Positions 1,016 through 28,388 of a stretch of 64,000 nucleotides of DNA are shown one piece after another. The stretch spans positions 52,969 through 116,968 of the forward strand of contig CAZCJX010000001.1 of NCBI GenBank assembly GCA_964499205.1, written 5' to 3'. The notes under the pieces are model-generated. The model had not been told where the DNA came from and ran no database searches. It worked only from the letters and a program-made list of their open reading frames with translations. The position numbers were made by a program, and so were the translations under genes. Numbering within the stretch: the first letter of the stretch is position 1; each line of letters begins with the position of its first letter. Origin of the DNA: an uncultured Actinomycetes bacterium. GTDB lineage: Bacteria; Chloroflexota; Dormibacteria; Aeolococcales; Aeolococcaceae.

Positions 1016-1038
1016 ACGGGCCACGGAAGGAAGGAATC

Positions 1039-3441
1039 ATGACCCAGCTCCGCAGTCGCGCCAGGGTGCGCATCATGCTCGCCGCCGCCGTCGGCCTGGT
1101 GGCCGCCGCGGTGTTCCCCTCCGGGACGGCACCGCGTGCGGTCGCCGCCGCCGCGGCGCATCCCCGCCTCCTCTTCAGCCAGACCGACGTGCCCGCGATG
1201 CAGAGCAAGGTGACCAGCGGCGTGGCGTCGCAGGCGTGGCACGTGGTGCTGACCGAGGCCAAGGAGCTGAGCGATCCCACCAGTCCCCTCTACGTCAACC
1301 CGGCCAACGTCAGCAATCCCAACGACTACAACGGGCAGAACCAGATGCCCGCGTACCTCGAGGACATGGCCTTCGCGTCGGTGATCAGCGGCGATCCCAC
1401 CTACGGGCAGCACGCCATCGACGTGATGAAAGCGCTGGGAGCGGCGGGCTGGCCGGCGTGGAACGGCAACGCGCTGGGCAAGGGTGACCTGCTGCGCGGC
1501 GTCGGCCTCGCCTTCGACTGGACCTACACCATCATGTCGGCGGCCGACCGCAGCACCATCGTCAACAGCATGACCCAGCACGAGCAGTACCTCTTCGGCA
1601 TCACCACCGAGGGCGGCGCGCCGGCGTCACCCGGCAGCAACTGGATGGGGGTGTCGTCGGGCGGCGCGGGGCTGGCGCTGCTGGCCCTGGACGGCGAGGC
1701 CGGCGCGCCCGCCGACCTCAGCACCCAGCTCAACAACGCGTCGAGCCGCATCAACACCTACTTCGGCTCCTTCGACCCCGGCGGCGCCTGGGGCGAGGGC
1801 TGGCTGTACGGCAACTACGGGATGCGCAACGCGCTGCCCTTCGCTCTCGCCTACAACCGCGCCGGCTACGGTGACCTGATCGGCGCCAACCCGCGCATCA
1901 AGTCGATGCGCAACTGGGGCTCCTACGAGCTGATCCCCGGCGACCGCTACGGCATGATCCCGCTCAACGACTCGCCCACCGACACCGGCGACGACGAGCT
2001 GCCCGAGCTCTTCTTCGCGCTCAACCCGGGCGACCCGCAGGACGGCTGGTTCTGGACCCAGACGGTCGGCCCCAACGGCGTCGACGAGTACAACCCGGCG
2101 CGCAACCAGTACTACGCCGGCGCCAAGAACTGCGTGTACCCGACCACCAACCCGGCCTCGGCCGCGCTCTGCCTCGAGTCCAACGCGCCTGTCTACAACA
2201 TCATCTACAACACCGTCGACAGCTCCACCTCGGCGACGCCCGACGGCGTGCTGCCCTACTCGACGTGGTTCCAGCAGCGCGGCCTGGTCGACGCGCGCAC
2301 CGGCTGGTCGCACGGTGGCAACGATTTCGCCAGCACCTTCGAGGCGCACCGCGGACCGGCGGGCCACTGGCAGGAGGACGCCGGGCAGTTCACCCTGTAC
2401 GGCATGGGCACCGCGTGGGCGGTGGACTCCGGATATGGCCACAACTACTCGTGCACCTCGGTGACGGTGATCGTCGAGGGCGGCGGCTCCTGCCCCTACA
2501 CCGACCAGGGCACCGCCGACGGCCACAACGTCATCCTCGTCGACGGCTCGGCGCTGACCCAGCAGTCGATGAACGGCGCCACCACGCTGCAGACCATGAC
2601 CACGCAGCTCACCGGCCCCGACTTCGCCTACGCGCTGGCCGACACCCGCTACCAGTTCGGCGAGCCGCTCACCGCGCCGTACGCCTGGCGCCACTGGATG
2701 CTCGACACCGCGCCGGGACGTCCGGTGCTGCTCGCCGTGTCCGACAGCATGCAGAAGGACAGTGCGCAGCACACCTGGGTGTGGCAGATGCACACCGACG
2801 CAGCCAACGCGGTCGGCGTGGCCGGGCCCAACTTCACCATCACCGGACCCACCGGCGCGACCATGACCGGACTCAACGAGGTCGGCGGCAACCCGATGGT
2901 CAATGCCACGCCCCCGCTGGGCCTGTCGGCGTCGTACCCGCTGCCGGGCGGCCGTCCCTTCGCCATGACCGTGCTCAAGGAGGAGGCCTTCTTCCAGTCG
3001 CTCGCGGTCGACCACCTCAGCGTGATGGCGGTGGTCGCGCCCGGCCAGCTGCCCGCCACGCTGAGCACTCTGCAGGTGGGCGGCGGCAACGCGGTCGACG
3101 TGTCGTGGAACAACGTGCACGACGTCGTCGGCGCTGCGGTGCACGGCTCGACGCGCACCTCCGGGGCGAACCTCGACACCGACGGCGCCTTCTTCAAGTT
3201 CACCCAGGGCATGTGCGAGACGGTGCTGCGCCAGGGCACCAAGCTCTCCGGCTACGGGCAGGACTACGTGGTGGTCACCGGCGGTGCCTCCGACGTCACC
3301 TGCGGCGGCGGCGCGATCAGCGCGACGGGGACGGCGGGCAACACCTACAAGGTGTACTCGCCGAGCGATCCCAGCAGCGTCACGGTGAACGGCACCGCTG
3401 TCACCTGGACCCGCTCCGGGAGCTACGTGACCTTCTCGTGA
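1039..3441 (+). CDS. secreted heparinase II/III-like polysaccharide lyase family protein
   Basis: ATG 1039 is preceded by GGAAGGAAGGA. N-terminal signal peptide (RSRARVRIMLAAAVGLVAAAVFPSGTAPRAVAAAAA). Overall sequence recognised as heparinase II/III-like. The PL family is not resolved. Confidence 0.8.
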   Translation: MTQLRSRARVRIMLAAAVGLVAAAVFPSGTAPRAVAAAAAHPRLLFSQTDVPAMQSKVTSGVASQAWHVVLTEAKELSDPTSPLYVNPANVSNPNDYNGQNQMPAYLEDMAFASVISGDPTYGQHAIDVMKALGAAGWPAWNGNALGKGDLLRGVGLAFDWTYTIMSAADRSTIVNSMTQHEQYLFGITTEGGAPASPGSNWMGVSSGGAGLALLALDGEAGAPADLSTQLNNASSRINTYFGSFDPGGAWGEGWLYGNYGMRNALPFALAYNRAGYGDLIGANPRIKSMRNWGSYELIPGDRYGMIPLNDSPTDTGDDELPELFFALNPGDPQDGWFWTQTVGPNGVDEYNPARNQYYAGAKNCVYPTTNPASAALCLESNAPVYNIIYNTVDSSTSATPDGVLPYSTWFQQRGLVDARTGWSHGGNDFASTFEAHRGPAGHWQEDAGQFTLYGMGTAWAVDSGYGHNYSCTSVTVIVEGGGSCPYTDQGTADGHNVILVDGSALTQQSMNGATTLQTMTTQLTGPDFAYALADTRYQFGEPLTAPYAWRHWMLDTAPGRPVLLAVSDSMQKDSAQHTWVWQMHTDAANAVGVAGPNFTITGPTGATMTGLNEVGGNPMVNATPPLGLSASYPLPGGRPFAMTVLKEEAFFQSLAVDHLSVMAVVAPGQLPATLSTLQVGGGNAVDVSWNNVHDVVGAAVHGSTRTSGANLDTDGAFFKFTQGMCETVLRQGTKLSGYGQDYVVVTGGASDVTCGGGAISATGTAGNTYKVYSPSDPSSVTVNGTAVTWTRSGSYVTFS

Positions 3442-8515: not shown

Positions 8516-11500
8516 TCAGGGAACGAGCAGGCGGGGCCGCCCGAGGATGCCGCAGACGCGCTGGTCCTCCGGGCCGTACACGGTGGGCACGCCGCGGGCG
8601 ACGAGCGGCGCCAGCGTCCCGGCGACCTCCAGCTCGATGAGGTTCTCGCCGGCGCGCAGCTGGACCTCGAGCTGCCACGGTGCGCAGAAGAGAACGCCGG
8701 CCTCGTCGCCGTTGACGCGGACGCCGACACTGCCGCGCACCTCGCCGAGATCGAGCACGGCGGGGCCCGCAGCGTCGACGTGCACCTGCGCGCGGTGGGC
8801 GATGACCCCGGCAAAGCAGTCGAGTCCCTGGCGGTGCCAGGAGATTCCCGTGCGGATGCGCCCCGGCCCGAGGTCGAGGACGGGATGCTCGCGGAAGCAC
8901 GCCGCTCCGCGGCCGCCCGGCGGGGCCTGGACGCGCAGCGCCACCCGGGCGCCACCGTGCAGCGGCAGCACGCCGTCGACGACGGCGGTCTCCCGGCCGT
9001 CGACGAAGGCGCGCACCTCGCCGTCGACGGGGAGAGTCATCGACCGCACCCCGGGCGGCGCCAGGAAGGCGAACCACGAGGGCGGCGGCGGTTGCGGCGA
9101 GTCCGACCAGCGCTGCTCGACCTGGCCGCGCATCACCGACTCACCTTCCAGCCAGGCCACGTCGCGGAGAGGATGGCGGCGCTCGACGGTGAGGCCGTCG
9201 GCCTCGCTCCAGCCCGAGAGCGGTGCCCCGGCACTGAGCTCGAAGGCTCCCACCCAGTCCTCGCCGGCAGCCGCGGTGTCCCACAGCTCGTCGGACACGA
9301 TGCTCACCTCGGCGCCGGAGTCGAGGCGCAGGTCGAGCCGGCAGCGGAACGACGGCGAGGTGATCGCCTCGCCGACCAGCGCCTCGACCACGTGCTCGCC
9401 CGCGGGCAGCCGCTCGGGCAGGTCGAGCGACACCGGCCCCGACGCGGAGACGTGCGACCGCACCTGCGCCGGCTCCGGCAGCACGACGCGGCGGCGGAAA
9501 CGGCGCGGTCCCGCGGCGCCGCGGTAGTCGGGGTGGATCATGCGGCCGCCCCAGATGGCGCGGGCGTCGCGCGCGTAGGGCTCGGTGAGCGCCCAGGTGA
9601 GGTGCGGCGGTGGGGGAGTGCGGTAGCCGCGAAAGGCGAGCGGCGTCGGGCGGCGCGGCTGCACCTCGACGGCGAGCTCGTGCCAGCCGGCGGTGAGCGA
9701 GACGGGCACCGAGAGCACGCCGCCCTCCACCGGCCCGACCAGCCGGCCGCCGTCGAGCCACACGGTGAGGACGCCTCCGCCCTCGATCACCAGGTTCGTG
9801 TCGAAGTCGTCCTCAACTCGGGCATGGGAGACGACGCGGCCGCCGGCCTCGGGGAGCAGCACCTTCCACTGCTCCACGGTGCCGCGCACGCCGAACATCG
9901 TCTCCAGGCAGACGTCCTCGAGCCCGTAGCGCTCCGAGTACTCGGCCGGCGCGCCGTCCACCAGCGCGCGCGGGCCGTAGGTCGAGACCACCTCGCGCCA
10001 GCCGTCTCCCAGGTGGCGCTGGCCCGGCGCGGGCCGCCCGGTGTCACCGGCCATGCGCTCCTCCATGCCGAGCGCGGGCGCCGGATGCTGGCAGTCCTCG
10101 GGCACCACCGGAGCGTTGCGCAAGGCGGGGTCGTCGCCCTCGCGCCAGGCGAAGGTGCGGCGCTCCACCGGTGGAGTGCCGGGATTGGCGGGAAGACGGA
10201 GGTCGCCCCAGCGGTTCTCGCCCCAGGGCAGGTACTCGCAGTCCCACTCCTCCGGGAGTGCGATCTCGCGGCGCGGCTGAACCGGCACCCGCTCCGGCGC
10301 ACCCGGCGGCAGGGCCACCACGGTGAAGGGGCCGTCGAGAGTGAGCAGGAGGTCATCGCCGTCCAGCCGCGCATCGAGGAGCGAGAGGCTGCCGTCGCGC
10401 ACCTCCCAGCGCTCGGCGCGACGGGGACCGACGCCGCGGACGCGCAGCGCGCCCTCGCCGGTGACCAGCAGCACGTCGAGGTCGCCGACGCGGCGCCACT
10501 GGGCGCGGGGCGCGCCGTCCAGCCGCGGCGGGGGCAGCGCGGCCACGGCCGCGGCGGCCGAGTCGACCACGGCGGCGACGGACCGCAACCGCTCGACGCG
10601 CGCGAGGAAGACGGCGTCGTCCTTCCCGTTCTCGGCGGACCACTCCGGCACCGGCTCGACGATCACCACCGGCACGCCCGCCTCGGCGCGCTGGATCAGC
10701 GCATCGACCACGGCGAGCGGCAGGCAGCGGCAGGCGGGGAGGACGACGGGCAGGTCGGGGACACGGTCGAGCCAGTCCTCGTTGACCACCATGCGGTCGT
10801 AGCCGGCGTCGTGGAGTGCGCTGGGGATCACCCAGGCGCCGGCGTCGTTCCACACCCTGGAGCCGTGCATGCCCATCAGCTCCGCGTAGCACTGCTGTGC
10901 GCGCTCCGCATCGGGTCCCCACTCCAGGTTTCCGACGGTGTCGGCCCAAACTGTGGAGAGCGGGTAGAGCACCGCCACCTCGGGGTGATGGCGTCCCGCC
11001 GCGGCCACCGTCATCAGGCGGCCGACCATCTCGGCGAAGGCGGGATAGTGCCGGGCGAACGGCTGCCGCCACGCGGACTCCGGCGAGGCCCACTCCCACC
11101 ACATGCCGCGGGTCGTGTAGTACGCGCCGTGGGGGAGGAAGAGGCTGGCGCCCTCGCGCGCCCACTCGAAGAGCTGCTCGGCCTGGTGGGCCAGGGTCAG
11201 CCCCTGTCCCTGCGAGTGGAAGCCTTCGAGCCACACGCGGGGAGCGCCGGTCAGGGTGGCGACGGAGAGGTGGAAACGGATGTCGCCCATCTGGTCGCTG
11301 CCGGGCGCGCCGGCCCAGGCCATGGTGCGGAAGGGATCGACGTAGGCGAGCGAGGCGAGCAGCGGCAGGCCGGCGCGGCTCATCTGGTCGTAGCCGGCGA
11401 GCAACCCGCGCTGCCTGCACCAGTCGCCGAGCTGCGCGGTGTAGGCGCTCTCGACGCGCTGCCTGGCCACGTCGCTGACCTGCCAGCGCAGCGCCGGCGC

Positions 11501-12154
11501 GCGCGGGTCGTCGGACCGCGCGAAGACCGCCGTCTCGGGTGGGTCGACGCCCTTGCTGCTGCGGTAGGTCGTGGCGAAGTCGGGGCTCCAGCGCGCGAAG
11601 ACCCACAGCTCGTCCTCGAACATGCCCACCACCGGGTCGCCGTAGAGGTCGGCGACCGCCGCGTCGATGCGTCCGGCCACCGTGTCGGGGCCGAGCAGGG
11701 CGGCCACCGCCTGCGGGTTGCCGAGGTCGAACCCGTAGGGCTGCGGCGGCGACCCCGCCTCGACCAGCTCGGCGCGGAATTCGGGGTGGCGGCGCAGCAG
11801 CGCGTCGAGCTCGCGCACACCGCCCACCTGGGTGGGGCTGTGCAGCACCACACCCAGACCGAGCTCCCGGCAGCGCAGGACGATGCGCCGGAAGAGCGCG
11901 TTCCTCTCCGGCGTGCCCATCGCCGGCTGGTCACCCACCGAACCGCCGGTGGCGCCGAAGGGCGCGAAGGAGATCGGCGTCACCCCGCCGCAGCCCATGG
12001 CGGCGAGCTGGTCGAGCTGCCAGAGCAGGCGTTCCTCGTCGAGTGGCTCGCCGCTCCACCACCAGGCGGGGATGGGGCGGTAGCGGTTGTCGGGCGCGGC
12101 GGCGAAGGCGCGGCGCAGCTCGTCAGCGTCGGTGATCGCCGTGGTCCAGTCCAT
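8516..12154 (-). CDS. large intracellular glycoside hydrolase, GH106-like (alpha-L-rhamnosidase candidate)
   Basis: 1212 aa from ATG 12154, with GGGGAG just upstream. The N-terminal motif RYRPIPAWWWSGEPLDEERLLWQLDQLAAMGCGG is typical of the GH106 / glycosylhydrolase-like jelly-roll group. No signal peptide. The family-level call is tentative. Confidence 0.55.
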   Translation of the reverse strand: MDWTTAITDADELRRAFAAAPDNRYRPIPAWWWSGEPLDEERLLWQLDQLAAMGCGGVTPISFAPFGATGGSVGDQPAMGTPERNALFRRIVLRCRELGLGVVLHSPTQVGGVRELDALLRRHPEFRAELVEAGSPPQPYGFDLGNPQAVAALLGPDTVAGRIDAAVADLYGDPVVGMFEDELWVFARWSPDFATTYRSSKGVDPPETAVFARSDDPRAPALRWQVSDVARQRVESAYTAQLGDWCRQRGLLAGYDQMSRAGLPLLASLAYVDPFRTMAWAGAPGSDQMGDIRFHLSVATLTGAPRVWLEGFHSQGQGLTLAHQAEQLFEWAREGASLFLPHGAYYTTRGMWWEWASPESAWRQPFARHYPAFAEMVGRLMTVAAAGRHHPEVAVLYPLSTVWADTVGNLEWGPDAERAQQCYAELMGMHGSRVWNDAGAWVIPSALHDAGYDRMVVNEDWLDRVPDLPVVLPACRCLPLAVVDALIQRAEAGVPVVIVEPVPEWSAENGKDDAVFLARVERLRSVAAVVDSAAAAVAALPPPRLDGAPRAQWRRVGDLDVLLVTGEGALRVRGVGPRRAERWEVRDGSLSLLDARLDGDDLLLTLDGPFTVVALPPGAPERVPVQPRREIALPEEWDCEYLPWGENRWGDLRLPANPGTPPVERRTFAWREGDDPALRNAPVVPEDCQHPAPALGMEERMAGDTGRPAPGQRHLGDGWREVVSTYGPRALVDGAPAEYSERYGLEDVCLETMFGVRGTVEQWKVLLPEAGGRVVSHARVEDDFDTNLVIEGGGVLTVWLDGGRLVGPVEGGVLSVPVSLTAGWHELAVEVQPRRPTPLAFRGYRTPPPPHLTWALTEPYARDARAIWGGRMIHPDYRGAAGPRRFRRRVVLPEPAQVRSHVSASGPVSLDLPERLPAGEHVVEALVGEAITSPSFRCRLDLRLDSGAEVSIVSDELWDTAAAGEDWVGAFELSAGAPLSGWSEADGLTVERRHPLRDVAWLEGESVMRGQVEQRWSDSPQPPPPSWFAFLAPPGVRSMTLPVDGEVRAFVDGRETAVVDGVLPLHGGARVALRVQAPPGGRGAACFREHPVLDLGPGRIRTGISWHRQGLDCFAGVIAHRAQVHVDAAGPAVLDLGEVRGSVGVRVNGDEAGVLFCAPWQLEVQLRAGENLIELEVAGTLAPLVARGVPTVYGPEDQRVCGILGRPRLLVP

Positions 12155-12187
12155 GCGCTCCCCGTGATTGACGGCGGTCCGCCGCGT

Positions 12188-12200
12188 TGGTAAGAATACA
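12188..12200. promoter_or_regulatory. AT-rich bidirectional promoter core (GGTAAGAATAC) between the GH106-like gene and the kinase-enolase operon
   Basis: Reads TAAGAAT on the + strand and TATTCT on the - strand. It is the only AT-rich patch in the 73-nt divergent spacer. Confidence 0.4.
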
Positions 12201-12227
12201 AAACAAATCGATGCACGTCGCCCGACT

Positions 12228-13247
12228 GTGAGCACCTCCACCGCGCCGGTGCTGCTCGACGAGACCAGCGCGGTCGCTCACCTGCGCCGCCGCGGCGTGC
12301 TCGACGCCGGCGAGGTGGCTGCGGTGCAGAGCCTGGGCGGCGGAGTCTCCAACACCGTGCTGCTGGTGGAGGCGCCGTCCTGCCGCGTGGTGGTCAAGCA
12401 GGCGCTGCCCCGGCTGCGGGTGGAGAAGGAGTGGCTCGCCGACCCGTCGCGCACCCTCACCGAGGGTCGCGCGCTGCGCTGGGCCGCCGGCGTCGACGCC
12501 TCCGCGGTGCCGCCCGTGGTCGACCTGGACGAGGAGCGGTGCGTGCTGCTCATCGGCGCCGCCCCGGCGGGGACGGTGGACTGGAAGCAGTGTCTCCTGC
12601 GCGGCGAGGTCTCCTCCGCGGTGGCCGCGCGCGCCGGGTCGCTGGTGGGGAGGCTCCACGCCGAGAGCGCCGGCCGTCCCTGGCTGCACACCGACTTCGA
12701 CTGCTGGGAGGCGTTCGAGCAGCTGCGCGTGCGACCGTACTTCGGCGCCATGATCGAGGCCGACCCGTCGCGCCGCGACATGGTCATGTCCCACGTCGCG
12801 GCCATGCGCGACCGCCGCGTCTGCCTGGTGCACGGCGACGTCTCGCCGAAGAACCTGCTCACCGGCGGTGGTGCCGGTTCCGCTCCGGGCCTGCTCTGGC
12901 TGATCGACTTCGAGGTCGCCTGCGCCGGTGACCCCGCCTTCGACGTCGCCTTCATGCTCACCCACCTCTGCATGAAGGCGCTGCACGGTGCTGCCGACCC
13001 GGGCGCGCTGCTCCACGCCGCGCGCGCGTTCCTCACCGCGTATCGCAGCCACGCCGCTGCACTGCTCGACGACGAGCGGCACGTCGCCGGGCTGCTCGGC
13101 TGCCTGCTGATGGCCCGTGTCGACGGCCGCTCGCCCGCGGAGTACCTCGACGAGCGCTCACGTGGGGCGGTGCGTGTGCTGGGGATGCAGCTCGCCGCCG
13201 ATCCGCCGGCGTCACTGGGCACGGCGCTCTGCGAGGCGCTGGCATGA
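12228..13247 (+). CDS. MtnK-like (methylthioribose-kinase-like) APH-fold sugar kinase
   Basis: GGGVSNTVLLV...VVKQALPRLRVEKEWLADPSRTLTEGRAL resembles the MtnK N-lobe. Brenner motif LVHGDVSPKNLL and metal-binding IDFE. Start is GTG 12228 or TTG 12168. The stop overlaps the next ATG (ATGA at 13244-13247). Confidence 0.75.
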   Translation: MSTSTAPVLLDETSAVAHLRRRGVLDAGEVAAVQSLGGGVSNTVLLVEAPSCRVVVKQALPRLRVEKEWLADPSRTLTEGRALRWAAGVDASAVPPVVDLDEERCVLLIGAAPAGTVDWKQCLLRGEVSSAVAARAGSLVGRLHAESAGRPWLHTDFDCWEAFEQLRVRPYFGAMIEADPSRRDMVMSHVAAMRDRRVCLVHGDVSPKNLLTGGGAGSAPGLLWLIDFEVACAGDPAFDVAFMLTHLCMKALHGAADPGALLHAARAFLTAYRSHAAALLDDERHVAGLLGCLLMARVDGRSPAEYLDERSRGAVRVLGMQLAADPPASLGTALCEALA

Positions 13248-14536
13248 CTGCCGCGACGCAGATCCGCGATCTGCTCGCCTGGGAGGCCCTCGACTCCCGC
13301 GGGCACCCCACCGTCGCCTGCCGGGTGACGCTGGAGGGCGGCGCGCAGGGCACAGCCCTGGCGCCGAGCGGCGCCTCCACCGGCGCCCACGAAGCTGTCG
13401 AACGGCGCGACGGCGGTGCGCGCCACCAGGGTCGCGGAGTTCTCGGCGCCGTCGCCGCCGTGCGTGGCGAGATCGCCGGCGCGCTGCGCGGCATGGACGT
13501 CTCCGACCAGCCCGCCGTGGACACCTGCCTGCGCGCCCTGGATGGCACCGCGCAGCTCAGCCGGCTGGGTGGCAACGCGGTGCTCGCGGTGTCGCTGGCC
13601 TGCGCTCGCGCCGCGGCCGCGGCCGGTGGCCAGCCGCTGTGGCGCGCCCTGGCCTCGGGGCCGCCGCTCCTCCCCATGCCCATGGTCAACATCCTCTCCG
13701 GCGGAGCCCACGCCGGCCGGATGTGCGACGTCCAGGACTTCCTCGCCGTGCCCGTCGGGGCGCACAGCTTCGCCGAGGCGATCGAGTGGGTCGCCCGGGT
13801 GCGCGCCGCGGCCGCCGAACTTGTGGCCGAACGTGGCGGAAACCCGCACCTCGTCGCCGACGAGGGCGGCCTGGCCATGCACCTCGACGACAACGCCGCA
13901 GGGCTGCGCCTGCTCACCGACGCCATCGAGCGCAGCGGCCTGCGCCCGCTGGACGAGGTGGCCATCGCCGTCGACGTCGCCGCCACCCAGCTCTTCGCCG
14001 GCGGCGTGTACACGCTGGCGGCGGAGGGGCGGACCCTGACCGGCGCGGAGATGGTCGACATGGTGGCGGGATGGTGCTCGCAGTGGCCGGTGGTGTCGGT
14101 GGAGGACCCCCTTGCCGAGGACGACTGGGAGAGCTGGCAGCCGGCCACCCGGCGCCTGGGCGGCATCCAGCTCATTGGCGACGACCTCTTCGTCACCTCG
14201 GCGGCGCGGCTGCAGCGCGGCATCGACAGCGGCGTGGCCAACGCAGTTCTGGTCAAGCTGAACCAGAACGGCACGCTCAGCGGCACCGCCGAGGTGATGC
14301 AGCGGGCCCGCCAGGCGGGCTACGCGACGGTGGTCTCCGCCCGCTCCGGCGAGACCGAGGACGACGTCATCGCCGACCTGGCCGTGGCCTGGCGCAGCGG
14401 GCAGATCAAGGTCGGCTCGCTGACGCGGTCGGAACGGACCGCGAAGTGGAACCGGCTGCTGGCCATCGAGGCCGAGCTCGGTGACGCCGCCGTCTTCGCC
14501 GGTGGCGACGCCCTCAGGGGACGACGATCACCTTGA
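13244..14536 (+). CDS. enolase-family protein (divergent paralog of phosphopyruvate hydratase)
   Basis: SRGHPTV, PSGASTG, DEGG, SVEDPLAEDDW, IGDDLFVT, KLNQNGT, RSGETED and QIKVGS..RSER.AKWN motifs. The canonical QEF reads QDF, and SHRSGETED reads SARSGETED. Confidence 0.85.
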   Translation: MTAATQIRDLLAWEALDSRGHPTVACRVTLEGGAQGTALAPSGASTGAHEAVERRDGGARHQGRGVLGAVAAVRGEIAGALRGMDVSDQPAVDTCLRALDGTAQLSRLGGNAVLAVSLACARAAAAAGGQPLWRALASGPPLLPMPMVNILSGGAHAGRMCDVQDFLAVPVGAHSFAEAIEWVARVRAAAAELVAERGGNPHLVADEGGLAMHLDDNAAGLRLLTDAIERSGLRPLDEVAIAVDVAATQLFAGGVYTLAAEGRTLTGAEMVDMVAGWCSQWPVVSVEDPLAEDDWESWQPATRRLGGIQLIGDDLFVTSAARLQRGIDSGVANAVLVKLNQNGTLSGTAEVMQRARQAGYATVVSARSGETEDDVIADLAVAWRSGQIKVGSLTRSERTAKWNRLLAIEAELGDAAVFAGGDALRGRRSP

Positions 14537-15563
14537 GGTGAGCCGTGGGCTCGGCGACCAGCCGTTCGAGCCCATCCTCGACGACGCGGGACAGCACCAC
14601 GCGGTCGGTGATCAGCGGCGCCACCTCGATCTCGCCGGAGCCGACCAGGCGAACCGCCTCGGCGAAGTCGTCGGCCACGGTGTGCGACAGCGAGGCGACC
14701 ACCTCGCGCTCACCGAGCAGCATGTCGAGCATCGAGATCTTGACGAAGTCGTCGTAAACACCCAGGAGCACGGTGCGCCCGCCGCGGCGGGAGAGCGCGA
14801 TGGCCGCCGCCGCCGCGCGCACGTTGCCGGCGACCTCCAGGGTGGTGTCGAGACCGATCCCGTCGCTGAGGTCGAGCGCCGCCTGGCCCGCCTCCTCCGG
14901 CGCCACCGCCACGGTCGCGCCCAGGCGCTCGGCGAGGCGGCGCCGTTCGGGCACGCGGTCCACCACCAGCACCGTCTCGGCGCCGGCCCGGCGGGCGACC
15001 TGCAGGGCCAGCAGTCCCACCGTGCCGCCCCCGACGATGCCCACGCTGCACCCTGGCGCCACCCCGGCGCGGCGGATGGCGCGCACCGCCACCGAGAGCG
15101 GCTCGGCGAGCGCGCCGTGGGCCGCCGGCACGCCCTCGCCGAGGGGCACGCACATCGAGGCAGGGGCGAGCATCACCTCGGCGAGCGCCCCGTCACCACG
15201 CAGGCCCAGCGGGGCGATGTGGACGCAGAGGTGCGTCTCGCCGCGCCGGCACCACCAGCAGTCGCCGCAGCTGAGGTTGCCCTCCACCGCCACCGGGGTG
15301 CCCGGGGCCAGGGCAACGTCCTCGCCGGCCACCTCGACGGTGCCGGCGGGCTCGTGGCCCAGGGTCAGCGGCGCGTTGCGGCCGGTGAGCGGGTGCGGCT
15401 GGCGCGGGATGAGGATCGGCCCCTGGCGGTACTCCTCGACGTCGGTGCCGCAGATGCCGCAGGCGTCGATGCGCAGGCGGACCCATCCCCGCGGCGGCGC
15501 GCCGGGATCGGCGACCTCCTCGACGCGCACGTCGCCGCGGCCGTGCCATCGCGCCGCCAGCAT
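14514..15563 (-). CDS. Zn-dependent MDR alcohol/polyol dehydrogenase
   Basis: Start ATG 15563 (MLAARWHGRGDVRVEEV). CGICGTDVEEY, GHEPAG, structural-Zn loop CGDCWWCRRGETHLC, and GGGTVGLL Rossmann motif. Confidence 0.85.
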   Translation of the reverse strand: MLAARWHGRGDVRVEEVADPGAPPRGWVRLRIDACGICGTDVEEYRQGPILIPRQPHPLTGRNAPLTLGHEPAGTVEVAGEDVALAPGTPVAVEGNLSCGDCWWCRRGETHLCVHIAPLGLRGDGALAEVMLAPASMCVPLGEGVPAAHGALAEPLSVAVRAIRRAGVAPGCSVGIVGGGTVGLLALQVARRAGAETVLVVDRVPERRRLAERLGATVAVAPEEAGQAALDLSDGIGLDTTLEVAGNVRAAAAAIALSRRGGRTVLLGVYDDFVKISMLDMLLGEREVVASLSHTVADDFAEAVRLVGSGEIEVAPLITDRVVLSRVVEDGLERLVAEPTAHLKVIVVP

Positions 15564-15585
15564 GGTCGACAAGGCGTGCAACCGG

Positions 15586-16587
15586 CTAGCGCCGCGGGTC
15601 AACGACAACCTTGATCGCGCTGTCGCGCGCCTCGGCCAGCGCCAGGAAGGCGTCCTGCGCCTCCTCCATGCCGACGCTGCGGTCGATGAGGGCGGGAATC
15701 GGCGAGCCCTCGGCGGCCACCAGCTCCACGGCCCTGGCGAAGTCGGGCTCGTCGTACCCGAAGCTGCCGAGCAGGCGCTTCTCGGGGACCACCAGCTCGA
15801 ACAGTCCCAGCTCGACGCGCGGCACGCCGAGTCCGATCACCACGACGTTGCCGCCGCTGCGCACCGCGGAGAGCGCGCCGCGCAGGGTGGCCCCCACGCC
15901 GACCGCGTCGACCATCACGTCGAACGGCGCGGCGCCGGCCAGCTCGTCGGGGTGCGTGGGGCGCAGGCCGAGCGCCTCCGCGCTGCGCAGGCGCTCCTCC
16001 TGCAGGTCGGACACCCACACCTCGCCCGCCCCGGCCTGGCGGGCCAGGTGGCCACAGAGCAACCCGATCGGGCCGGCGCCCACCACCCCGACCCGCTGGC
16101 CGGGCTGGACGTCGGCCAGGCGCATGGCGTGCACCGAGACCGCGCACGGCTCGACCATGACGCCCTGCTCGACGGGCAGCGCCGCGGGCAGGGGAACGAT
16201 GTTGCGAGCGCGAACGCCGATGCGCTCGGCGAAGGCACCCTGGATGCTGGGGGTGACGCCGATGACGCTGCGGTTCTCGCAGAGGGTGACCCGTCCGGCG
16301 AGGCAGGGGCCGCAGGCACCGCAGAAGAGCAGCGGGTTGAAGGTCACCGGGTCTCCGGCATGGAACTCCGTGACCCGCTCTCCGGTGGCGGAGACCACCC
16401 CGGCGGCCTCGTGGCCCATCACCATGCCGGGGGTGCGCCGGCCGGATTCGCCGGAGTAGCCGTGCACGTCACTGCCGCAGATGCCGACCGCGTGCATCTC
16501 GATGACCACGTCGTCGGGACCGCAGACGGGCTCGGCAACCTCGTCGACGACGAGCTGCCGGGCCTGGCGAAAGACCAATGCGCGCAA
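15586..16587 (-). CDS. Zn-dependent MDR alcohol/polyol dehydrogenase (sorbitol/idonate dehydrogenase-like)
   Basis: TTG start preceded by AAGGAAGGAGAG. GICGSDVHGY, GHEAAGVV, CGACGPCLAGRVTLC, VGAGPIGLL. Confidence 0.85.
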   Translation of the reverse strand: MRALVFRQARQLVVDEVAEPVCGPDDVVIEMHAVGICGSDVHGYSGESGRRTPGMVMGHEAAGVVSATGERVTEFHAGDPVTFNPLLFCGACGPCLAGRVTLCENRSVIGVTPSIQGAFAERIGVRARNIVPLPAALPVEQGVMVEPCAVSVHAMRLADVQPGQRVGVVGAGPIGLLCGHLARQAGAGEVWVSDLQEERLRSAEALGLRPTHPDELAGAAPFDVMVDAVGVGATLRGALSAVRSGGNVVVIGLGVPRVELGLFELVVPEKRLLGSFGYDEPDFARAVELVAAEGSPIPALIDRSVGMEEAQDAFLALAEARDSAIKVVVDPRR

Positions 16588-20692: not shown

Positions 20693-21550
20693 GTGATCGA
20701 CGGCACGAGCACCATCGTTCGCTTTCTGTCAGACGACGAGGTCGGCGTCGGCGTGCTCGCCGGCGGTCGCATCCAGCGCCTGGAGATCGCCAGCATCGGA
20801 GCGCTGTTGCGTCTCTCCCTGGATGAGGCCCGGCACCTTGTCGCTGCGCCCCCGGGCGACTCGCTGGACGCCGGCCACTGCCGGCTGCTCGCCCCGGTCG
20901 ACGAGCAGGAAGTGTGGGCGGCCGGGGTGACCTACCTGCGCAGCCGCGATGCCCGGCTCGAGGAGTCGGGTGGTGCCGACGCGTACTCGCGCGTGTACCA
21001 GGCCGACCGTCCGGAGCTGTTCTTCAAGAGCCCGGGCTGGCGGGTGGTCGGACCCGACGAGGCGATCGGCATCCGCAGGGACTCCACCTGGAGCCTTCCC
21101 GAGCCCGAGCTTGCCGTGGTCGTCAACAGCCGGCAGGAGATCGTCGGCTACACCGTCGGCAATGACGTCAGCTCGCGGTCCATCGAGGGCGAGAACGCCC
21201 TCTACCTGCCCCAGGCAAAGGTGTACGAGAGGTCGTGTGCCCTCGGTCCCGGCATCGTGCCGGCCTGGGATATCCCCGATCCCATCGAGGCGGCGATCGA
21301 GCTCGAGGTCGTGCGCGGGAGCAGCGTGGTCACCCGCGCGTCGTCGACGCTGGGCAACATGAAGCGCTCGATTCCGGAGCTGCTCGATTGGCTGCACCGT
21401 GCCATCGCGTTTCCGCACGGTGTCGTCCTGCTCACCGGCACCGGCGCGGTGCCGCCGTCGGACTTCACGCTCCAGGCCGATGACCGGGTGGTGATCGAGA
21501 TCACCGGAGTCGGCCGGCTCTGCAACCCGGTGGTGGAGGTGGGACGGTGA
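20693..21550 (+). CDS. FAH-family 2-keto-3-deoxy-pentonate dehydratase-like protein (XylX/KdaD-like)
   Basis: FAH-fold sequence with WAAGVTY...ELFFK...PEPELAVVV...[14 protein letters not shown] start sits 6 nt after TAATAT. GTGA overlap with the next gene. Confidence 0.75.
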
Positions 21551-23010
21551 TCGCATCGCCGCCCCGGGTGGCGTCCTACGTCGCCGGTGAGTGGCTGCGC
21601 GACGGCGAGGCGGCGTCTGACATCAACCCCGCGCGGCCCACGGAGACGGTTGCGCAGGTGACCATGGCAGGAGCGGACGCCGCCGGCCAGGCTGTCGCCG
21701 CAGCCCGCCATGCCTTCGCCGCATGGCGCGACACGCCCGCCCCGGCGCGCGGCGAGATCCTGCACCGCGCTGCCGAGCTGATCCTGCAGCGGCTGGAGCC
21801 CGTGGCCCGGGAGCTGACCAGCGAGGAGGGCAAGACGCTGGCGGAGGCCACCGGCGAGCTGCGCCGGGCGGCGGGCGTCCTCCGCTACTACGCGGCGCAG
21901 ACCCTGGAACCGGACGGCGAGACGTATCCGTCAGCATCGGCACGAACGTTTCTCTACGCGCGGCGCGAGCCGATCGGCACGGTGCTGGCCATCACCCCGT
22001 GGAACTTCCCCGCCGCCATCCCGGCGTGGAAGATCGCGCCCGCCCTGGCCTACGGCAACACGGTGGTCTGGAAGCCCGCTGACCTGGTCCCGCTCACCTC
22101 GCTGCGACTCCTGGAGGCGTTCGTCGACGCGGGGCTTCCGCCCGGCGTGCTGAACCTGGTGATCGGCAGGGGTTCGGTGGTCGGCGATGCCCTGGTCGAG
22201 CATCCCGATGTGTCGGCGATCAGCTTCACCGGGTCGAACCAGGTGGGGTCGTCGATCCGGCTCAGGGCGGCGGCGCGCGGCACCAAGCTGCAGCTCGAGA
22301 TGGGCGGCAAGAATCCCGCGGTGGTGCTGGCCGATGCCGACCTCGACCTGGCCGCCGAGCACGTGGCGCGCGGCAGCTTCCTCTCCGCGGGGCAGAAGTG
22401 CACGGCGACCAGCCGGGTCATCGTCGATGAACGCGTCGTCGAGTCCTTCACCGAGCGGCTGTGCCGGCTCACCGCGACATGGAAGCTGGGCGACCCGATG
22501 GAGCCGGACACGCGCATCGGCCCGGTGGTGTCGCAGCCGGCGCTCGACTCCGTCCTCGGATACATCCGCACCGGGTCGGCCGAGGGCCGGATTGTGCTCG
22601 GCGGTGAGCGGGCGGCGTCGCTCGGCGACGGCTACTTCGTCGAGCCGACGGTGATCACCGGCCTGAGCGAGACGTCGCCGGTGGTCAACGAGGAGATCTT
22701 CGGTCCGGTCGCCGCGGTGCTGCCCGCCCGCGACGCCGCCGATGCGCTGCGCCTGGCCAACCAGACGACGTACGGCCTGTCGGCCAGCGTCTTCACCCGC
22801 GACCTGGGACGCGCGCTGCAGTTCGCCTCCGGTCTCGATGTGGGTGTGGTCAAGATCAACCAGGAGAGCGCCGGACTGGAGCTGCACGTTCCCTTTGGCG
22901 GCAACAAGCAATCGTCCTCGGGTTCGCGGGAGCAGGGAAAGGTGGCCCGGGACTTCTTCACGCAGTGGAAGACGGTGTACGTCGACGCGGAGGCAGAGCC
23001 CACGACATGA
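21547..23010 (+). CDS. NAD(P)-dependent aldehyde dehydrogenase (2,5-dioxovalerate / alpha-ketoglutarate semialdehyde dehydrogenase candidate)
   Basis: ALDH motifs LEMGGKNP (Glu) and GQKCTATSR (Cys). The specific function is inferred from operon context. Confidence 0.85.
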
Positions 23011-23900
23011 TGACCACGCTGAAGCCTGAGCTGGTGATCGACGTCGGTGCCCACGATGGTGAGGGACCGTTCTGGCTCGCGCACGAGCAGCGGCTCGGCT
23101 GGGTCGACATCGGCGCGGGTGCGTTGCACATCACCGATGTCGCACGAGGCACCGACGATGTCATCGCGGTCGGCTCGCCACTCGGCGCCGCCGCCCCTCG
23201 CCGCGGTGGCGGGTACGTGCTCGCTGTCGAGGACGGGTTTGCCCTCATCGACCCCGGGTCGCGTGAGGCTCGTCTGGTTGCCCCCGTCGACTCCGACGGC
23301 GGTCGCGTGCGCATGAATGACGGCAAGTGCGATGCGCAGGGTCGCTTCTGGGCGGGCACCATGGCCTACGACCACCGGCAGCGCCTCGGCGCTTTCTACA
23401 GGCTCGACCCCGATCTGACCGTCACCAAGATCTTCGACGGGTTGGGCATCTCCAACGGCCTCGACTGGTCGCCGGACGGACGGACCTTCTACTACATCGA
23501 CAGCCTCGACCATCGCGTCGACGTCTTCGACGCCGATCCCGCAACCGGCAGCCTGGCCAACCGGCGCACCGCCGTCGAGGTGCCCGACGATCCCTCGACG
23601 GAGCCGGGCATGGCGGTGCCCGACGGGATGACCCTGGACGCGGAGGGCCACCTGTGGGTGGCGGTGTGGGGTGGGGGAGAGGTTCGCCGCTACAGTCCCA
23701 GCGGCGCGCTCGAGGTCGTGGTGGAGATGCCGGTGGTCTGCCCCAGCGCGTGCACGTTCGGCGGAGCCGATCTCGGCGACCTGTACATCACCACCATGGT
23801 CCCCTCCGATGTCGGCCGCGGCCCGCTGCCCGGTGAGGGCGCCGTGTACCGGGTGCGCCCGGGAGTGCGCGGATTGCCGGTGCGCGCCTTTGCCGGCTGA
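23007..23900 (+). CDS. SMP-30/gluconolactonase/LRE-family sugar lactonase
   Basis: ATG 23007 overlaps the ALDH stop (ATGA). EGPFW, NDGKCD, SNGLDWSPDG and PDGMTLD beta-propeller motifs. Confidence 0.85.
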   Translation: MMTTLKPELVIDVGAHDGEGPFWLAHEQRLGWVDIGAGALHITDVARGTDDVIAVGSPLGAAAPRRGGGYVLAVEDGFALIDPGSREARLVAPVDSDGGRVRMNDGKCDAQGRFWAGTMAYDHRQRLGAFYRLDPDLTVTKIFDGLGISNGLDWSPDGRTFYYIDSLDHRVDVFDADPATGSLANRRTAVEVPDDPSTEPGMAVPDGMTLDAEGHLWVAVWGGGEVRRYSPSGALEVVVEMPVVCPSACTFGGADLGDLYITTMVPSDVGRGPLPGEGAVYRVRPGVRGLPVRAFAG

Positions 23901-24549
23901 GCCGTCGCTGCTCGACTCGCTGGTGCGGGGATTGCGCACCGCGTTGCTGTCGGACGTTCTCGACCAACTCGGCCATCGCCAGCACAGCCTCCCGCCGTCC
24001 ATCACCGCGCTCGAGCCCGGCACCGTCCTCGCCGGCTACGCCATGCCGATCCTGGTCGAGGAGGTCGACGACATTCCGGCCGAACCGTACCGTGGCGAGG
24101 TCGCCGCAATGGATGATCTCCGCGACGGAGATGTCGCCGTCCTCGCCGCAGCGGCGACGACGCATGCCGCGCTGTGGGGAGAGCTCTTCTCCACAGCGGC
24201 GCGCGCGAGAGGCGCGCGCGGCGCGATCGTCGACGGCCTGGTCCGCGACACCCGGCTGATTCGCGGCATGCACTTCCCTGTCTTCGCGCGCGGCGCGCTG
24301 CCGCTCGACTGCAACGGCCGCACCGCATACGTGGCGCACCGCCAACCGGTGCAGATCGCCGGGGTGTCCGTCGCCGGCGGCGACCTGGTCTTCGCCGACG
24401 AGGACGGCATCGTCGTCGTCCCGCAACCGCTCGTCGACGAGACGGTGCAGCGTGCCTTCGAGAAGGCGACGACGGAGAACACGGTGCGCGAGGCGCTGCT
24501 CGGCGGGATGACGCTGCGCGAAGCCTGGGATCGCTACCGCGTGCTGTAA
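23890..24549 (+). CDS. RraA-like / HMG-CHA-aldolase-fold protein (putative class II pyruvate aldolase)
   Basis: LRTALLSDVLD..., WGELFSTAARARGARGAIVDGLVRD typical of the RraA/demethylmenaquinone-methyltransferase-like family. Start is TTG 23890 (overlaps the lactonase stop) or GTG 23923. Confidence 0.75.
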   Translation: MPAEPSLLDSLVRGLRTALLSDVLDQLGHRQHSLPPSITALEPGTVLAGYAMPILVEEVDDIPAEPYRGEVAAMDDLRDGDVAVLAAAATTHAALWGELFSTAARARGARGAIVDGLVRDTRLIRGMHFPVFARGALPLDCNGRTAYVAHRQPVQIAGVSVAGGDLVFADEDGIVVVPQPLVDETVQRAFEKATTENTVREALLGGMTLREAWDRYRVL

Positions 24550-24561
24550 CAGAGGGACATC

Positions 24562-25818: not shown

Positions 25819-25839
25819 CAGGTCAGCGCCGGCGCCGGG

Positions 25840-28336: not shown

Positions 28337-28346
28337 TCCGAATTTT

Positions 28347-28361
28347 CCATCCCCGGGATGG
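28347..28361. promoter_or_regulatory. 15-bp palindrome CCATCCCCGGGATGG in the divergent promoter region
   Basis: Arms CCATCC/GGATGG. Lies between the IlvD-like start (28336) and the FAH start (28389). Confidence 0.35.
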
Positions 28362-28376
28362 TTGGTAAGTATTCCA

Positions 28377-28382: not shown

Positions 28383-28388
28383 CTACCC

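What the first reader, a model, noticed from the sequence alone, without database searches (positions are those of the whole stretch)
12228..14536. Translationally coupled MtnK-like sugar kinase and an enolase paralog with altered active-site residues
The kinase has the MtnK-type N-lobe (VKQALPRLRVEKEWLADPSRTLTEGRAL) and intact HGDxxxxN / DFE catalytic motifs. Its stop overlaps the ATG of a full-length enolase-family gene. Compared with canonical enolases (yeast numbering, from memory), all metal ligands and both catalytic lysines are present (DEGG, D246, SVEDP, GDD, KLNQ, QIKVG). Two residues that contact the C3-hydroxyl side differ: E168 (QEF) is Asp (QDF), and H373 (SHRSGETED) is Ala (SARSGETED). 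I know of no described pathway that pairs an APH-fold sugar kinase with an enolase. The pair sits divergent to a rhamnosidase-like GH and inside a deoxy-sugar locus. That suggests phosphorylation followed by beta-elimination on a non-glycolytic phospho-(sugar) acid, or a salvage route for a modified sugar.
Basis: partly seen in the sequence, partly recalled or inferred. Interest (0 to 1): 0.62.

Follow-up and report, generated by a model that had tools for sequence, protein, structure and literature searches.

The report
Kinase coupled to a variant enolase
A kinase and an altered copy of the glycolytic enzyme enolase form a tightly linked gene pair that recurs in many bacteria and some archaea, is labelled by databases as ordinary enolase, and probably turns a glycerate-like acid into a phosphoenol compound by a route nobody has described.

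Summary
An MtnK-fold kinase (12228-13247) ends in an ATGA overlap with a full-length enolase-family gene (13244-14536). That enolase keeps every metal, phosphate and acid/base residue but has Asp for yeast-E168 and Ala for yeast-H373.

This is not a strain oddity. The same signature defines a clade (169 sequences: Asp 169/169; Ala/Val/Gly 166/2/1). It separates from 80 canonical enolases with 100/100 bootstrap support and carries six further pocket changes. The kinase sits next to the enolase in every enolase-side locus examined and in 62 of 69 scorable kinase-side metagenome loci. None of 80 canonical enolase loci has such a kinase.

The pair occurs in Actinobacteria, Chloroflexi-type MAGs, Alphaproteobacteria and Haloarchaea, often on plasmids. 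One contig carries both the paralog and a canonical enolase. Natural fusions exist: kinase-enolase, and D-2-hydroxyacid dehydrogenase-kinase.

Best reading: 2-oxo acid or aldehyde, then a D-2,3-dihydroxy acid, then its 2-phosphate, then a phosphoenol acid. The substrate is unidentified. I favour a glycerate homologue that housekeeping enolase cannot handle. The main rival is plain D-glycerate to 2-PG to PEP.

I found no prior description. NCBI's enolase model names the clade "phosphopyruvate hydratase".

The parts
12155..12227 (+). Divergent intergenic region with the only sigma-70-like promoter match of the region (TTGACG, 18 nt, AAGAAT at 12168-12197), about 30 nt upstream of the kinase start
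   Evidence: 1 site found, 0.0 expected in shuffles. Sequence. The GH gene ends at 12154 according to the gene calls.
12228..13247 (+). MtnK-fold (APH/protein-kinase-like) small-molecule kinase, 339 aa, GTG start. Proposed role: 2-O-kinase for a D-2-hydroxy acid.
   Evidence: invariant K57, HGD-SPKN, DFE, ARVDGxSPxEYL. (AF2 pLDDT 92.7). (Foldseek top hits are MtnK). (1171 representatives at E<=1e-30).
13244..13247 (+). ATGA start/stop overlap, indicating translational coupling of kinase and enolase
   Evidence: The same 4-nt overlap is seen in L004, L006, L170-L172, L174-L176 and L178-L181.
13244..14536 (+). Enolase-family paralog of the 'D/A clade', 430 aa. Catalytic and metal/phosphate residues are intact. 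It has D165 (yeast E168) and A366 (yeast H373), plus S152, L167, A205, L210, V390 and W402. Proposed role: dehydratase for a 2-phospho-3-hydroxy acid.
   Evidence: (100/100 split from canonical enolases). (AF2 pLDDT 91.5; TM 0.94-0.96 to solved enolases, at most 50% identity).
14514..16587 (-). Two Zn-dependent alcohol/polyol dehydrogenase genes (14514-15563 by the gene calls, and 15586-16587), convergent with the enolase and overlapping its 3' end by 23 bp. Possible upstream pathway members; association is tentative.
   Evidence: The same ADH-ALDH-ADH set lies in one operon with the pair in L181.
20693..23010 (+). FAH-family protein and an aldehyde dehydrogenase (similar to alpha-ketoglutarate-semialdehyde dehydrogenase). 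These are recurrent neighbours of the pair in other loci; association is tentative.
   Evidence: Recurrence shown.

Best explanation
The two genes form a self-contained, horizontally mobile catabolic module. The MtnK-fold kinase phosphorylates the 2-hydroxyl of a small D-2,3-dihydroxy acid (glycerate-like). That acid comes either from a D-2-hydroxyacid dehydrogenase acting on a 2-oxo-3-hydroxy acid, or from an aldehyde dehydrogenase acting on an aldol-cleavage product. The translationally coupled enolase paralog then uses ordinary enolase chemistry: two Mg2+ ions, a Lys base at C2 and a Glu acid on the C3 leaving group. It eliminates water and yields a phosphoenol acid (PEP or a PEP homologue) that enters central metabolism at the PEP/pyruvate node. 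I think the acid is most likely not plain glycerate. I favour a homologue with extra, non-polar bulk at C3, such as a C4 tetronate or 4-deoxytetronate, or an O3-substituted glycerate. The housekeeping enolase would handle the 2-phosphate of such an acid poorly. That would explain why the kinase always carries its own enolase with a widened, less polar C3 pocket. What is shown: gene linkage, fusions, the residue pattern and paralogy. What is inferred: the position of phosphorylation, the direction of the pathway and the identity of the substrate.
For: Linkage:
- The kinase is adjacent and on the same strand in all enolase-side loci: the window, Amycolatopsis, Gordonia, Nocardia, Frankia, Streptomyces, two long metagenome contigs, and plasmids of Rhodococcus, Sphingobium, Methylobacterium, Haladaptatus and Halomarina.
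- It is adjacent in 62 of 69 scorable kinase-side metagenome loci.
- None of 80 canonical-enolase loci has such a kinase.
- 4-nt overlaps are the rule, and the gene order is flipped in some loci while the genes stay adjacent.

Fusions:
- P0241 is a kinase-enolase fusion. P0325 is a D-2-hydroxyacid dehydrogenase-kinase fusion.
- Both the dehydrogenase and the kinase must act on the C2 oxygen. Together with the retained phosphate site of the enolase, this allows only one linear order: dehydrogenase, kinase, enolase.

Residues:
- The Mg ligands, H159, Q167, R374, S375, K345, K396 and E211 equivalents are invariant in 169 clade members.
- E168 is Asp in 169/169. H373 is Ala/Val/Gly in 166/2/1.
- Six further clade-specific switches line the pocket and make it less polar.

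Paralogy:
- The clade splits from canonical enolases with 100/100 bootstrap support.
- Plasmid-borne copies exist.
- L144 carries both types on one contig.

Context:
- Partners in the same operon are D-2-hydroxyacid dehydrogenases, FAH, ALDH, a DeoC-type aldolase, Zn-ADHs, DhaK/L and a near-equivalog of LarA.
- The pair stands alone in many loci.
Against: - No biochemical data exist. The position of phosphorylation is inferred only.
- The gene contexts fit ordinary D-glycerate perfectly well. This is the hydroxypyruvate reductase, glycerate 2-kinase, enolase logic of the serine cycle and the glucarate pathway.
- From memory of the yeast literature, H373N keeps roughly a tenth of activity. The altered pocket may therefore still turn over 2-PG.
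- I could not measure pocket geometry because no model coordinates are exposed. 'Larger and less polar' is read from side-chain identities only.
- No pathway known to me produces the favoured C4 acids in all these contexts.
- Seven kinase homologues lack an adjacent enolase.
Confidence: 0.45

Rival explanations
1. Ordinary glycerate route. The kinase is a non-orthologous D-glycerate 2-kinase. The paralog is a true 2-PG enolase isozyme dedicated to catabolic flux (glycerate to 2-PG to PEP). Its pocket changes are neutral or regulatory, for example different kinetics or different sensitivity to inhibitors.
For: - The enolase scores above the curated TIGR01060 cut-off (437-491 bits), and all catalytic residues are kept.
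- Contexts give glycerate naturally. L181 has an aldolase plus ALDH. GhrB/PGDH-like dehydrogenases are fused or adjacent. L140 has DhaK/L.
- The logic is known from the serine cycle, E. coli GarK and mammalian GLYCTK (my knowledge).
- A stand-alone pair makes sense for a ubiquitous metabolite.
Against: - If the product were 2-PG, the resident enolase would suffice, and the paralog should often be lost. Instead linkage is near-obligate across phyla, on plasmids and in a fusion.
- Asp at E168 and a small residue at H373 never revert in 169 sequences, and six more positions co-vary. This indicates selection for a different pocket.
- The clade never pairs with a classical glycerate kinase in the roughly 20 enolase-side loci seen.
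Confidence: 0.3
2. L-glycerate route. The kinase and enolase are specific for the L enantiomer: L-glycerate from L-glyceraldehyde, or from diketo-hydrolase cleavage of L-hexonates, then 2-phospho-L-glycerate, then PEP. This would explain the need for a dedicated enolase.
For: - Tight coupling and the altered environment around E211.
- FAH diketo-hydrolase-like neighbours.
- A LarA-type 2-hydroxyacid racemase sits upstream of the kinase in L148.
Against: - The dehydrogenase fused to, or directly upstream of, the kinase belongs to the D-isomer-specific family.
- Inverting C2 would require remodelling around K345. That residue and its neighbours are unchanged, and the changes lie on the C3 side.
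Confidence: 0.08
3. Desulfonation route. 3-Sulfolactate from sulfoquinovose degradation is phosphorylated. The paralog then eliminates sulfite from 2-phospho-3-sulfolactate to give PEP, which is the chemistry of phosphosulfolactate synthase ComA run in reverse.
For: - L006 has GH31 genes, a sulfatase and a TauE-type exporter next to the pair, plus a lactonase, an IlvD/EDD dehydratase and an ALDH. This resembles the sulfo-Entner-Doudoroff gene set.
- A larger pocket at the leaving-group position.
Against: - The window's GH31 resembles alpha-xylosidase (392 bits) more than YihQ-type enzymes (205 bits), and its ALDH resembles alpha-ketoglutarate semialdehyde dehydrogenase.
- TauE and the sulfatase were seen in only one locus.
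- The pocket loses His and Thr and keeps two carboxylates (D165, E207). That is unfavourable for a sulfonate.
- No literature link was found.
Confidence: 0.07
4. The two proteins are linked but do not act in sequence. Examples: the kinase phosphorylates a sugar at the anomeric position as MtnK does, or the enolase paralog serves a non-catalytic or regulatory role.
For: - The nearest folds are anomeric-OH kinases.
- Fusions of the kinase to FGGY and PfkB sugar kinases exist.
- Canonical enolases are known to moonlight in complexes; PDB entries listed include RNase E, RibD and Csm complexes.
Against: - The full catalytic apparatus is under strict conservation in 169 sequences.
- The kinase-enolase and dehydrogenase-kinase fusions point to consecutive steps on a 2-hydroxy acid.
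- No MtnA/MtnB-type partner appears in any locus.
Confidence: 0.05

Closest known systems
Canonical enolase / phosphopyruvate hydratase (EC 4.2.1.11; NCBIfam TIGR01060; Pfam PF03952 + PF00113)
   Same: - Same two-domain fold (TM 0.94-0.96, rmsd about 1.5 A to M. tuberculosis, E. coli and other enolases).
- Same Mg ligands, phosphate and carboxylate binders, Lys base and Glu acid.
- Scores above the family cut-off.
   Different: - At most 50-55% identity to canonical enzymes.
- A separate clade with 100/100 bootstrap support.
- E168 to Asp, H373 to Ala, plus N152S, M167L, G205A, F210L, T390V/I and Y402W.
- 150-200 bits lower on TIGR01060.
- Always next to a kinase, often on plasmids, and co-existing with a canonical copy.
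5-Methylthioribose kinase MtnK (EC 2.7.1.100; TIGR01767) and its relative 5-deoxyribose kinase DrdK
   Same: - Closest solved fold (2pyw, 2pun, 2olc).
- Shared N-lobe motif KQALP-R.
- APH-type catalytic loop and DFE metal motif.
   Different: - 39 bits against a cut-off of 275, and 15-18% identity.
- No MtnA/MtnB/DrdI/DrdA-type neighbours in any locus.
- A family-specific C-terminal motif, ARVDGxSPxEYL, and many invariant Arg/Lys residues. My inference is that these suggest an anionic substrate.
- Partnered with an enolase and D-2-hydroxyacid dehydrogenases.
Hydroxypyruvate reductase, glycerate 2-kinase, enolase segment (serine cycle HprA/GckA/Eno; E. coli GarR/GarK; archaeal non-phosphorylative Entner-Doudoroff). 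This comparison rests on my own knowledge.
   Same: - The same order of reactions is inferred: 2-oxo acid or aldehyde, then 2-hydroxy acid, then 2-phosphate, then phosphoenol acid.
- The same kinds of neighbours: GhrB-like dehydrogenase, ALDH, HpcH/DeoC aldolases.
   Different: - The kinase is unrelated to class I (GarK/GlxK), class II (MOFRL) or class III glycerate kinases.
- Those pathways use the housekeeping enolase, whereas this module brings a remodelled one.
Phosphosulfolactate synthase ComA (coenzyme M biosynthesis). This comparison rests on my own knowledge.
   Same: Interconverts PEP and a 2-phospho-3-X-propanoate by Mg-dependent addition/elimination at C3, which is the kind of reaction considered here.
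   Different: Unrelated fold and opposite physiological direction. The sulfonate hypothesis is disfavoured by the residue pattern.

Membership tests
Enolase (phosphopyruvate hydratase, TIGR01060 / EC 4.2.1.11) | Enolase_N + Enolase_C domain architecture and fold | tested here: met
   Pfam E 1.5e-43 and 8e-88. AF2 model has TM 0.94-0.96 to solved enolases.
Enolase (phosphopyruvate hydratase, TIGR01060 / EC 4.2.1.11) | Score above the curated equivalog cut-off | tested here: met
   475 bits against a cut-off of 300. Canonical enolases score 640-647 and clade members 437-491, so the cut-off does not discriminate between them.
Enolase (phosphopyruvate hydratase, TIGR01060 / EC 4.2.1.11) | Mg ligands (D246, E295, D320, S39), base K345, acid E211, K396, R374, S375, H159, Q167 | tested here: met
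   All are present and invariant in the clade. The exception is the S39 equivalent, which is Ser in 152 sequences and Ala in 16.
Enolase (phosphopyruvate hydratase, TIGR01060 / EC 4.2.1.11) | Glu at yeast position 168 (invariant in 80/80 canonical sequences) | tested here: not met
   Asp in the window protein and in 169/169 clade members.
Enolase (phosphopyruvate hydratase, TIGR01060 / EC 4.2.1.11) | His at yeast position 373 (invariant in 80/80 canonical sequences) | tested here: not met
   Ala in the window protein. Ala/Val/Gly in 166/2/1 clade members.
Enolase (phosphopyruvate hydratase, TIGR01060 / EC 4.2.1.11) | Groups with canonical enolases in a tree; is the cell's glycolytic copy | tested here: not met
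   100/100 bootstrap split. Plasmid-borne in five genera. Co-resident with a canonical enolase on contig L144. This could not be tested for the window's own genome.
Enolase (phosphopyruvate hydratase, TIGR01060 / EC 4.2.1.11) | Catalyses 2-phospho-D-glycerate to PEP efficiently | not testable with these tools
   Needs an enzyme assay.
MtnK, 5-methylthioribose kinase (TIGR01767) | Score above the equivalog cut-off | tested here: not met
   39 bits against 275, and only residues 10-111 match.
MtnK, 5-methylthioribose kinase (TIGR01767) | MtnK-type fold | tested here: met
   The Foldseek top 14 hits are MtnK structures, TM 0.68-0.78.
MtnK, 5-methylthioribose kinase (TIGR01767) | Genomic association with methionine-salvage or 5-deoxyribose genes (mtnA, mtnB, drdI, drdA) | tested here: not met
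   None appear in about 100 loci inspected by clustering and Pfam.
APH / protein-kinase-like phosphotransferases (PF01636) | Domain match plus ATP-binding Lys, catalytic HGD...N loop and DFE metal motif | tested here: met
   64 bits against a cut-off of 23. K57, H202-G203-D204, N209 and D227-F228-E229 are conserved: all invariant in 32 homologues except F228, which is kept in at least 90%.
Known glycerate kinases (GarK/GlxK class I; MOFRL class II) | Sequence homology to either family | tested here: not met
   No such family appears among the Pfam or NCBIfam hits of the kinase.
Sulfo-Entner-Doudoroff pathway (considered for context) | Sulfoquinovosidase-type GH31 and a sulfite/sulfolactate exporter in the locus | tested here: not met
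   The window's GH31 is closer to alpha-xylosidase than to YihQ-type enzymes (392 against 205 bits, both below cut-off). TauE was seen only in L006.

The most novel reading that the evidence does not exclude
[quoted passage not shown] That family dehydrates a 2-phospho-2,3-dihydroxy acid other than 2-PG, for example 2-phospho-tetronate or 2-phospho-4-deoxytetronate, to a PEP homologue. It is fed by a new family of MtnK-fold hydroxyacid 2-kinases. Together they would form a widespread, ATP-primed route from dihydroxy acids to 2-oxo acids that needs no Fe-S cluster. The route would close sugar, polyol and aromatic catabolic pathways in Actinobacteria, Chloroflexi, Proteobacteria and Haloarchaea.
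Probability: 0.45. Interest if true: 0.8.

Novelty: new variant of a known kind. Interest (0 to 1): 0.7.

Why it matters
- Enolase is one of the most conserved and best-studied enzymes, and its subgroup is used as a textbook example of an isofunctional family. A large clade with a remodelled C3 pocket and an obligate kinase partner would be the first clear functional split inside it, or at least a new isozyme class with a new family of glycerate-type kinases.
- The clade passes NCBI's curated enolase model. It is therefore annotated as "eno / glycolytic process" in RefSeq genomes and plasmids. This inflates glycolysis calls in metabolic reconstructions and hides an unassigned step.
- The module sits at the end of pentose or sugar-acid, polyol and aromatic ring-cleavage clusters, including plasmids of Rhodococcus opacus PD630, a strain widely studied for aromatic catabolism (my knowledge). 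Knowing its substrate would complete those pathways.
- The kinase family is large (1171 representatives at 50% identity) and has no assigned function.

Tried and rejected
- Genome scan with the enolase as query. The conserved peptides are shared with housekeeping enolases, so all 80 loci returned were canonical. As a result I have no systematic count across named genomes.
- Sulfoquinovose / sulfolactate idea, raised by L006. I rejected it as the main reading.
- F420 / 2-phospholactate idea, prompted by LarA, the LUD genes and the taxonomic spread. I rejected it because 2-phospholactate has no C3 leaving group, and no cofC/cofD/fbiC gene was seen beside the pair.
- Uronate-1-phosphate or anomeric phosphorylation followed by elimination. 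I rejected it because the phosphate site of the enolase is unchanged and the pocket changes are small.
- Ten literature searches found no description of the pair or the clade.
- Transcription evidence. Only soil-metagenome DNA runs hold the window.
- Pocket geometry. Model coordinates are not exposed, so I could not measure distances or volumes.
- Third-gene search. No neighbour family occurs in more than about 10 of about 70 loci.
- The seven kinases without an adjacent enolase do not form a subfamily of their own.
Full report
**What is at the coordinates**

The window is high-GC (about 72%) soil-metagenome DNA of actinobacterial type. Third-position GC and independent gene calls on identical contigs define two genes:
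- a 339-aa gene at 12228-13247 (+), with a GTG start
- a 430-aa gene at 13244-14536 (+)

The junction reads GCATGACTG, so the enolase ATG overlaps the kinase TGA by four bases. Upstream lies a 73-bp region shared with a divergent 1212-aa glycoside-hydrolase-like gene. This region holds the only promoter-like match in 12000-14800. The enolase 3' end overlaps a convergent Zn-dehydrogenase gene by 23 bp. The window has no second enolase or kinase copy.

**The kinase**

- It matches the APH phosphotransferase family (PF01636).
- It matches MtnK only weakly and only in the N-lobe (39 bits against a cut-off of 275).
- In 32 homologues the ATP-binding Lys, HGDxSPKN, DFE and a family-specific C-terminal ARVDGxSPxEYL motif are invariant or nearly so, along with several Arg/Lys residues.
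- A confident model (pLDDT 92.7) is closest to MtnK structures (TM about 0.75, 15-18% identity), followed by PsiK and LxmK.

"MtnK-like" is therefore right for the fold and wrong for orthology. The family is large: 1171 representatives at 50% identity with E <= 1e-30.

**The enolase paralog**

- It has both enolase domains and scores 475 bits on NCBI's enolase equivalog model, whose cut-off is 300.
- Its model superposes on solved enolases at TM 0.94-0.96, but no solved structure is more than 50% identical.
- Alignments to solved enolases show QDF for QEF and SARSGETED for SHRSGE(T/S)ED.

I compared 169 relatives that share this signature with 80 canonical enolases. Every Mg ligand, phosphate and carboxylate binder and both acid/base residues are invariant in both sets. 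The position of yeast E168 is Asp in 169/169 relatives and Glu in 80/80 canonical sequences. The position of yeast H373 is Ala/Val/Gly in 166/2/1 relatives and His in 80/80 canonical sequences.

Six further switches separate the sets: N152S, M167L, G205A, F210L, T390V/I and Y402W. Judged from side-chain identities alone, the C3 side of the pocket becomes larger and less polar, while the C1/C2/phosphate side is untouched.

The two sets split with 100/100 bootstrap support. Median identity is 0.61 within the clade and 0.50 between the sets. The outgroup is mostly alphaproteobacterial.

**Is the pairing real?**

| Test | Result |
|---|---|
| Enolase side: the window, Amycolatopsis thermalba, Gordonia terrae, Nocardia noduli, Frankia AgB32, Streptomyces triticirhizae, two long metagenome contigs | Kinase adjacent in every locus |
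| Enolase side: plasmids of Rhodococcus opacus PD630, Sphingobium, Methylobacterium nodulans, three Haladaptatus, Halomarina | Kinase adjacent, usually with a 4-nt overlap; gene order sometimes reversed |
| Kinase side: 80 metagenome loci (kinase identity down to 32%) | 62 of 69 with enough downstream sequence have an enolase next door on the same strand; all scorable ones carry the signature |
| Negative control: 80 canonical-enolase loci | No such kinase within 10 kb |
| Seven unlinked kinases | Scattered among linked ones; not a separate subfamily |

**Is it the housekeeping enolase?**

This cannot be tested for the window's own genome. In relatives the answer is no:
- The pair lies on plasmids in five genera.
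- Contig L144 carries the kinase, a signature enolase (437 bits on TIGR01060) and, 5.8 kb away, a canonical enolase (647 bits).

Canonical enolases score 640-647 bits and clade members 437-491. The curated cut-off therefore does not separate them. RefSeq names the clade "eno, phosphopyruvate hydratase, glycolytic process".

**What the fusions and neighbours say**

Four long kinase-family hits are natural fusions:

| Protein | Fusion |
|---|---|
| P0241 | kinase + enolase (signature kept, with Gly at the H373 position) |
| P0325 | D-isomer-specific 2-hydroxyacid dehydrogenase + kinase |
| P0261 | FGGY kinase + kinase |
| P0289 | PfkB kinase + kinase |

P0261 and P0289 are each followed by an overlapping signature enolase.

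A 2-hydroxyacid dehydrogenase and a kinase that feeds an enolase-type active site must both act on the C2 oxygen. The only consistent order is therefore 2-oxo acid, then D-2-hydroxy acid, then 2-phosphate, then elimination at C3.

No third gene is universal, and in many loci the pair stands alone. The recurrent settings are:
- **Sugar-acid sets** of the Weimberg or diketo-hydrolase type: lactonase, IlvD/EDD or MR/MLE dehydratase, FAH, ALDH, SDR. Found in the window, L006, freshwater low-GC loci and haloarchaeal plasmids.
- **A polyol or ketose operon** in L181: ABC permease, DeoC-type aldolase, FGGY-kinase fusion, enolase, Zn-ADH, ALDH, Zn-ADH. The window has the same ADH pair and an ALDH nearby.
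- **Aromatic ring-cleavage clusters** in Frankia, Nocardia, Gordonia, Amycolatopsis, Rhodococcus and Sphingobium: 2-hydroxyacid dehydrogenase, kinase, enolase and FAH together with a BphC-type dioxygenase and an FAD monooxygenase.
- **Single cases**: DhaK/DhaL upstream in L140 and a near-equivalog of LarA upstream in L148.

All of these point to a small 2-hydroxy acid of defined C2 configuration as the kinase substrate.

**Mechanism and what remains open**

The retained residues imply ordinary enolase chemistry on a 2-phospho carboxylate with a leaving group on C3 that needs protonation. The simplest substrate is D-glycerate. The module would then copy the known hydroxypyruvate reductase, glycerate 2-kinase, enolase logic (my knowledge), with an unrelated kinase.

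Two observations argue for something else:
- Linkage to a private enolase is almost obligate, although a canonical enolase is present.
- Asp and a small residue at the two C3-side positions never revert, and six other positions change with them.

I therefore favour a glycerate homologue with extra neutral bulk at C3, such as a C4 tetronate or 4-deoxytetronate, or an O3-substituted glycerate (0.45). Plain glycerate is the main rival (0.30).

I disfavour an anionic leaving group such as sulfonate. The pocket loses His and Thr and keeps two carboxylates, and the sulfosugar context did not hold up. I disfavour L-glycerate because the partner dehydrogenase belongs to the D-specific family.

**Prior knowledge**

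Ten full-text searches found no description of the pair or the clade. Papers built on the Structure-Function Linkage Database treat the enolase subgroup as one family. From memory, enolase homologues with other roles exist in phosphinothricin biosynthesis; I did not test any relation to them.

**Verdict**

- The feature is a real, widespread, mobile and mis-annotated two-gene module whose substrate is unknown.

Noticed in passing
window 30456-37969: A classical actinobacterial L-rhamnose catabolic set: a LutB-like LUD/CCG/4Fe-4S protein, an FGGY kinase, a xylose-isomerase-like TIM-barrel protein, and an aldolase-II/SDR fusion that looks like a rhamnulose-1-phosphate aldolase joined to a lactaldehyde dehydrogenase.
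   Followed up: partly
window 20693-29312: A set of non-phosphorylative sugar-acid pathway genes: FAH, an ALDH similar to alpha-ketoglutarate-semialdehyde dehydrogenase, an SGL lactonase, an RraA-like protein, an MR/MLE dehydratase, an SDR, an IlvD/EDD dehydratase, and a second FAH resembling 2,4-didehydro-3-deoxy-L-rhamnonate hydrolase.
   Followed up: partly
window 8516-12154 (-): A 1212-aa protein divergent from the kinase. It has no recognised catalytic domain, only a C-terminal rhamnosidase-type jelly-roll match (43 bits against a cut-off of 1300). It may be an undescribed glycoside hydrolase.
   Followed up: no
window 92-3441 (+): Two consecutive genes (307 and 809 aa) with strong coding signal but no Pfam or NCBIfam match.
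   Followed up: no
NCBIfam TIGR01060, seen on window 13244-14536 and L144: The curated 300-bit cut-off does not separate canonical enolases (640-647 bits) from the variant clade (437-491 bits). RefSeq therefore labels the clade 'eno, glycolytic process'.
   Followed up: yes
L144 6999-16333: One metagenome contig carries the kinase, the variant enolase and a canonical enolase within 10 kb.
   Followed up: yes
L112, L120, L147, L151, L157: Low-GC loci (0.42-0.48) share an operon of a U32-like TIM-barrel protein (309 aa, no NCBIfam match), an SDR, the kinase and the enolase. FAH and ALDH (and IlvD/EDD in two of the loci) lie nearby. The role of the U32-like protein is unknown.
   Followed up: partly
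L180 344-2263; L181 2148-4742: The MtnK-like kinase is fused to a ribokinase-like PfkB domain (P0289) or a xylulokinase-like FGGY domain (P0261). It is unclear whether both kinase halves act on one molecule.
   Followed up: partly
L172, L175, L176 (haloarchaeal plasmids): A small cupin gene always follows the enolase. An ilvC-like reductoisomerase, four or five MR/MLE genes and a thermosome-type chaperonin gene lie beside the pair.
   Followed up: no
window 48625-54462 (-): Two family III CoA-transferase genes. The second is an 800-aa protein with two CoA-transferase domains.
   Followed up: no
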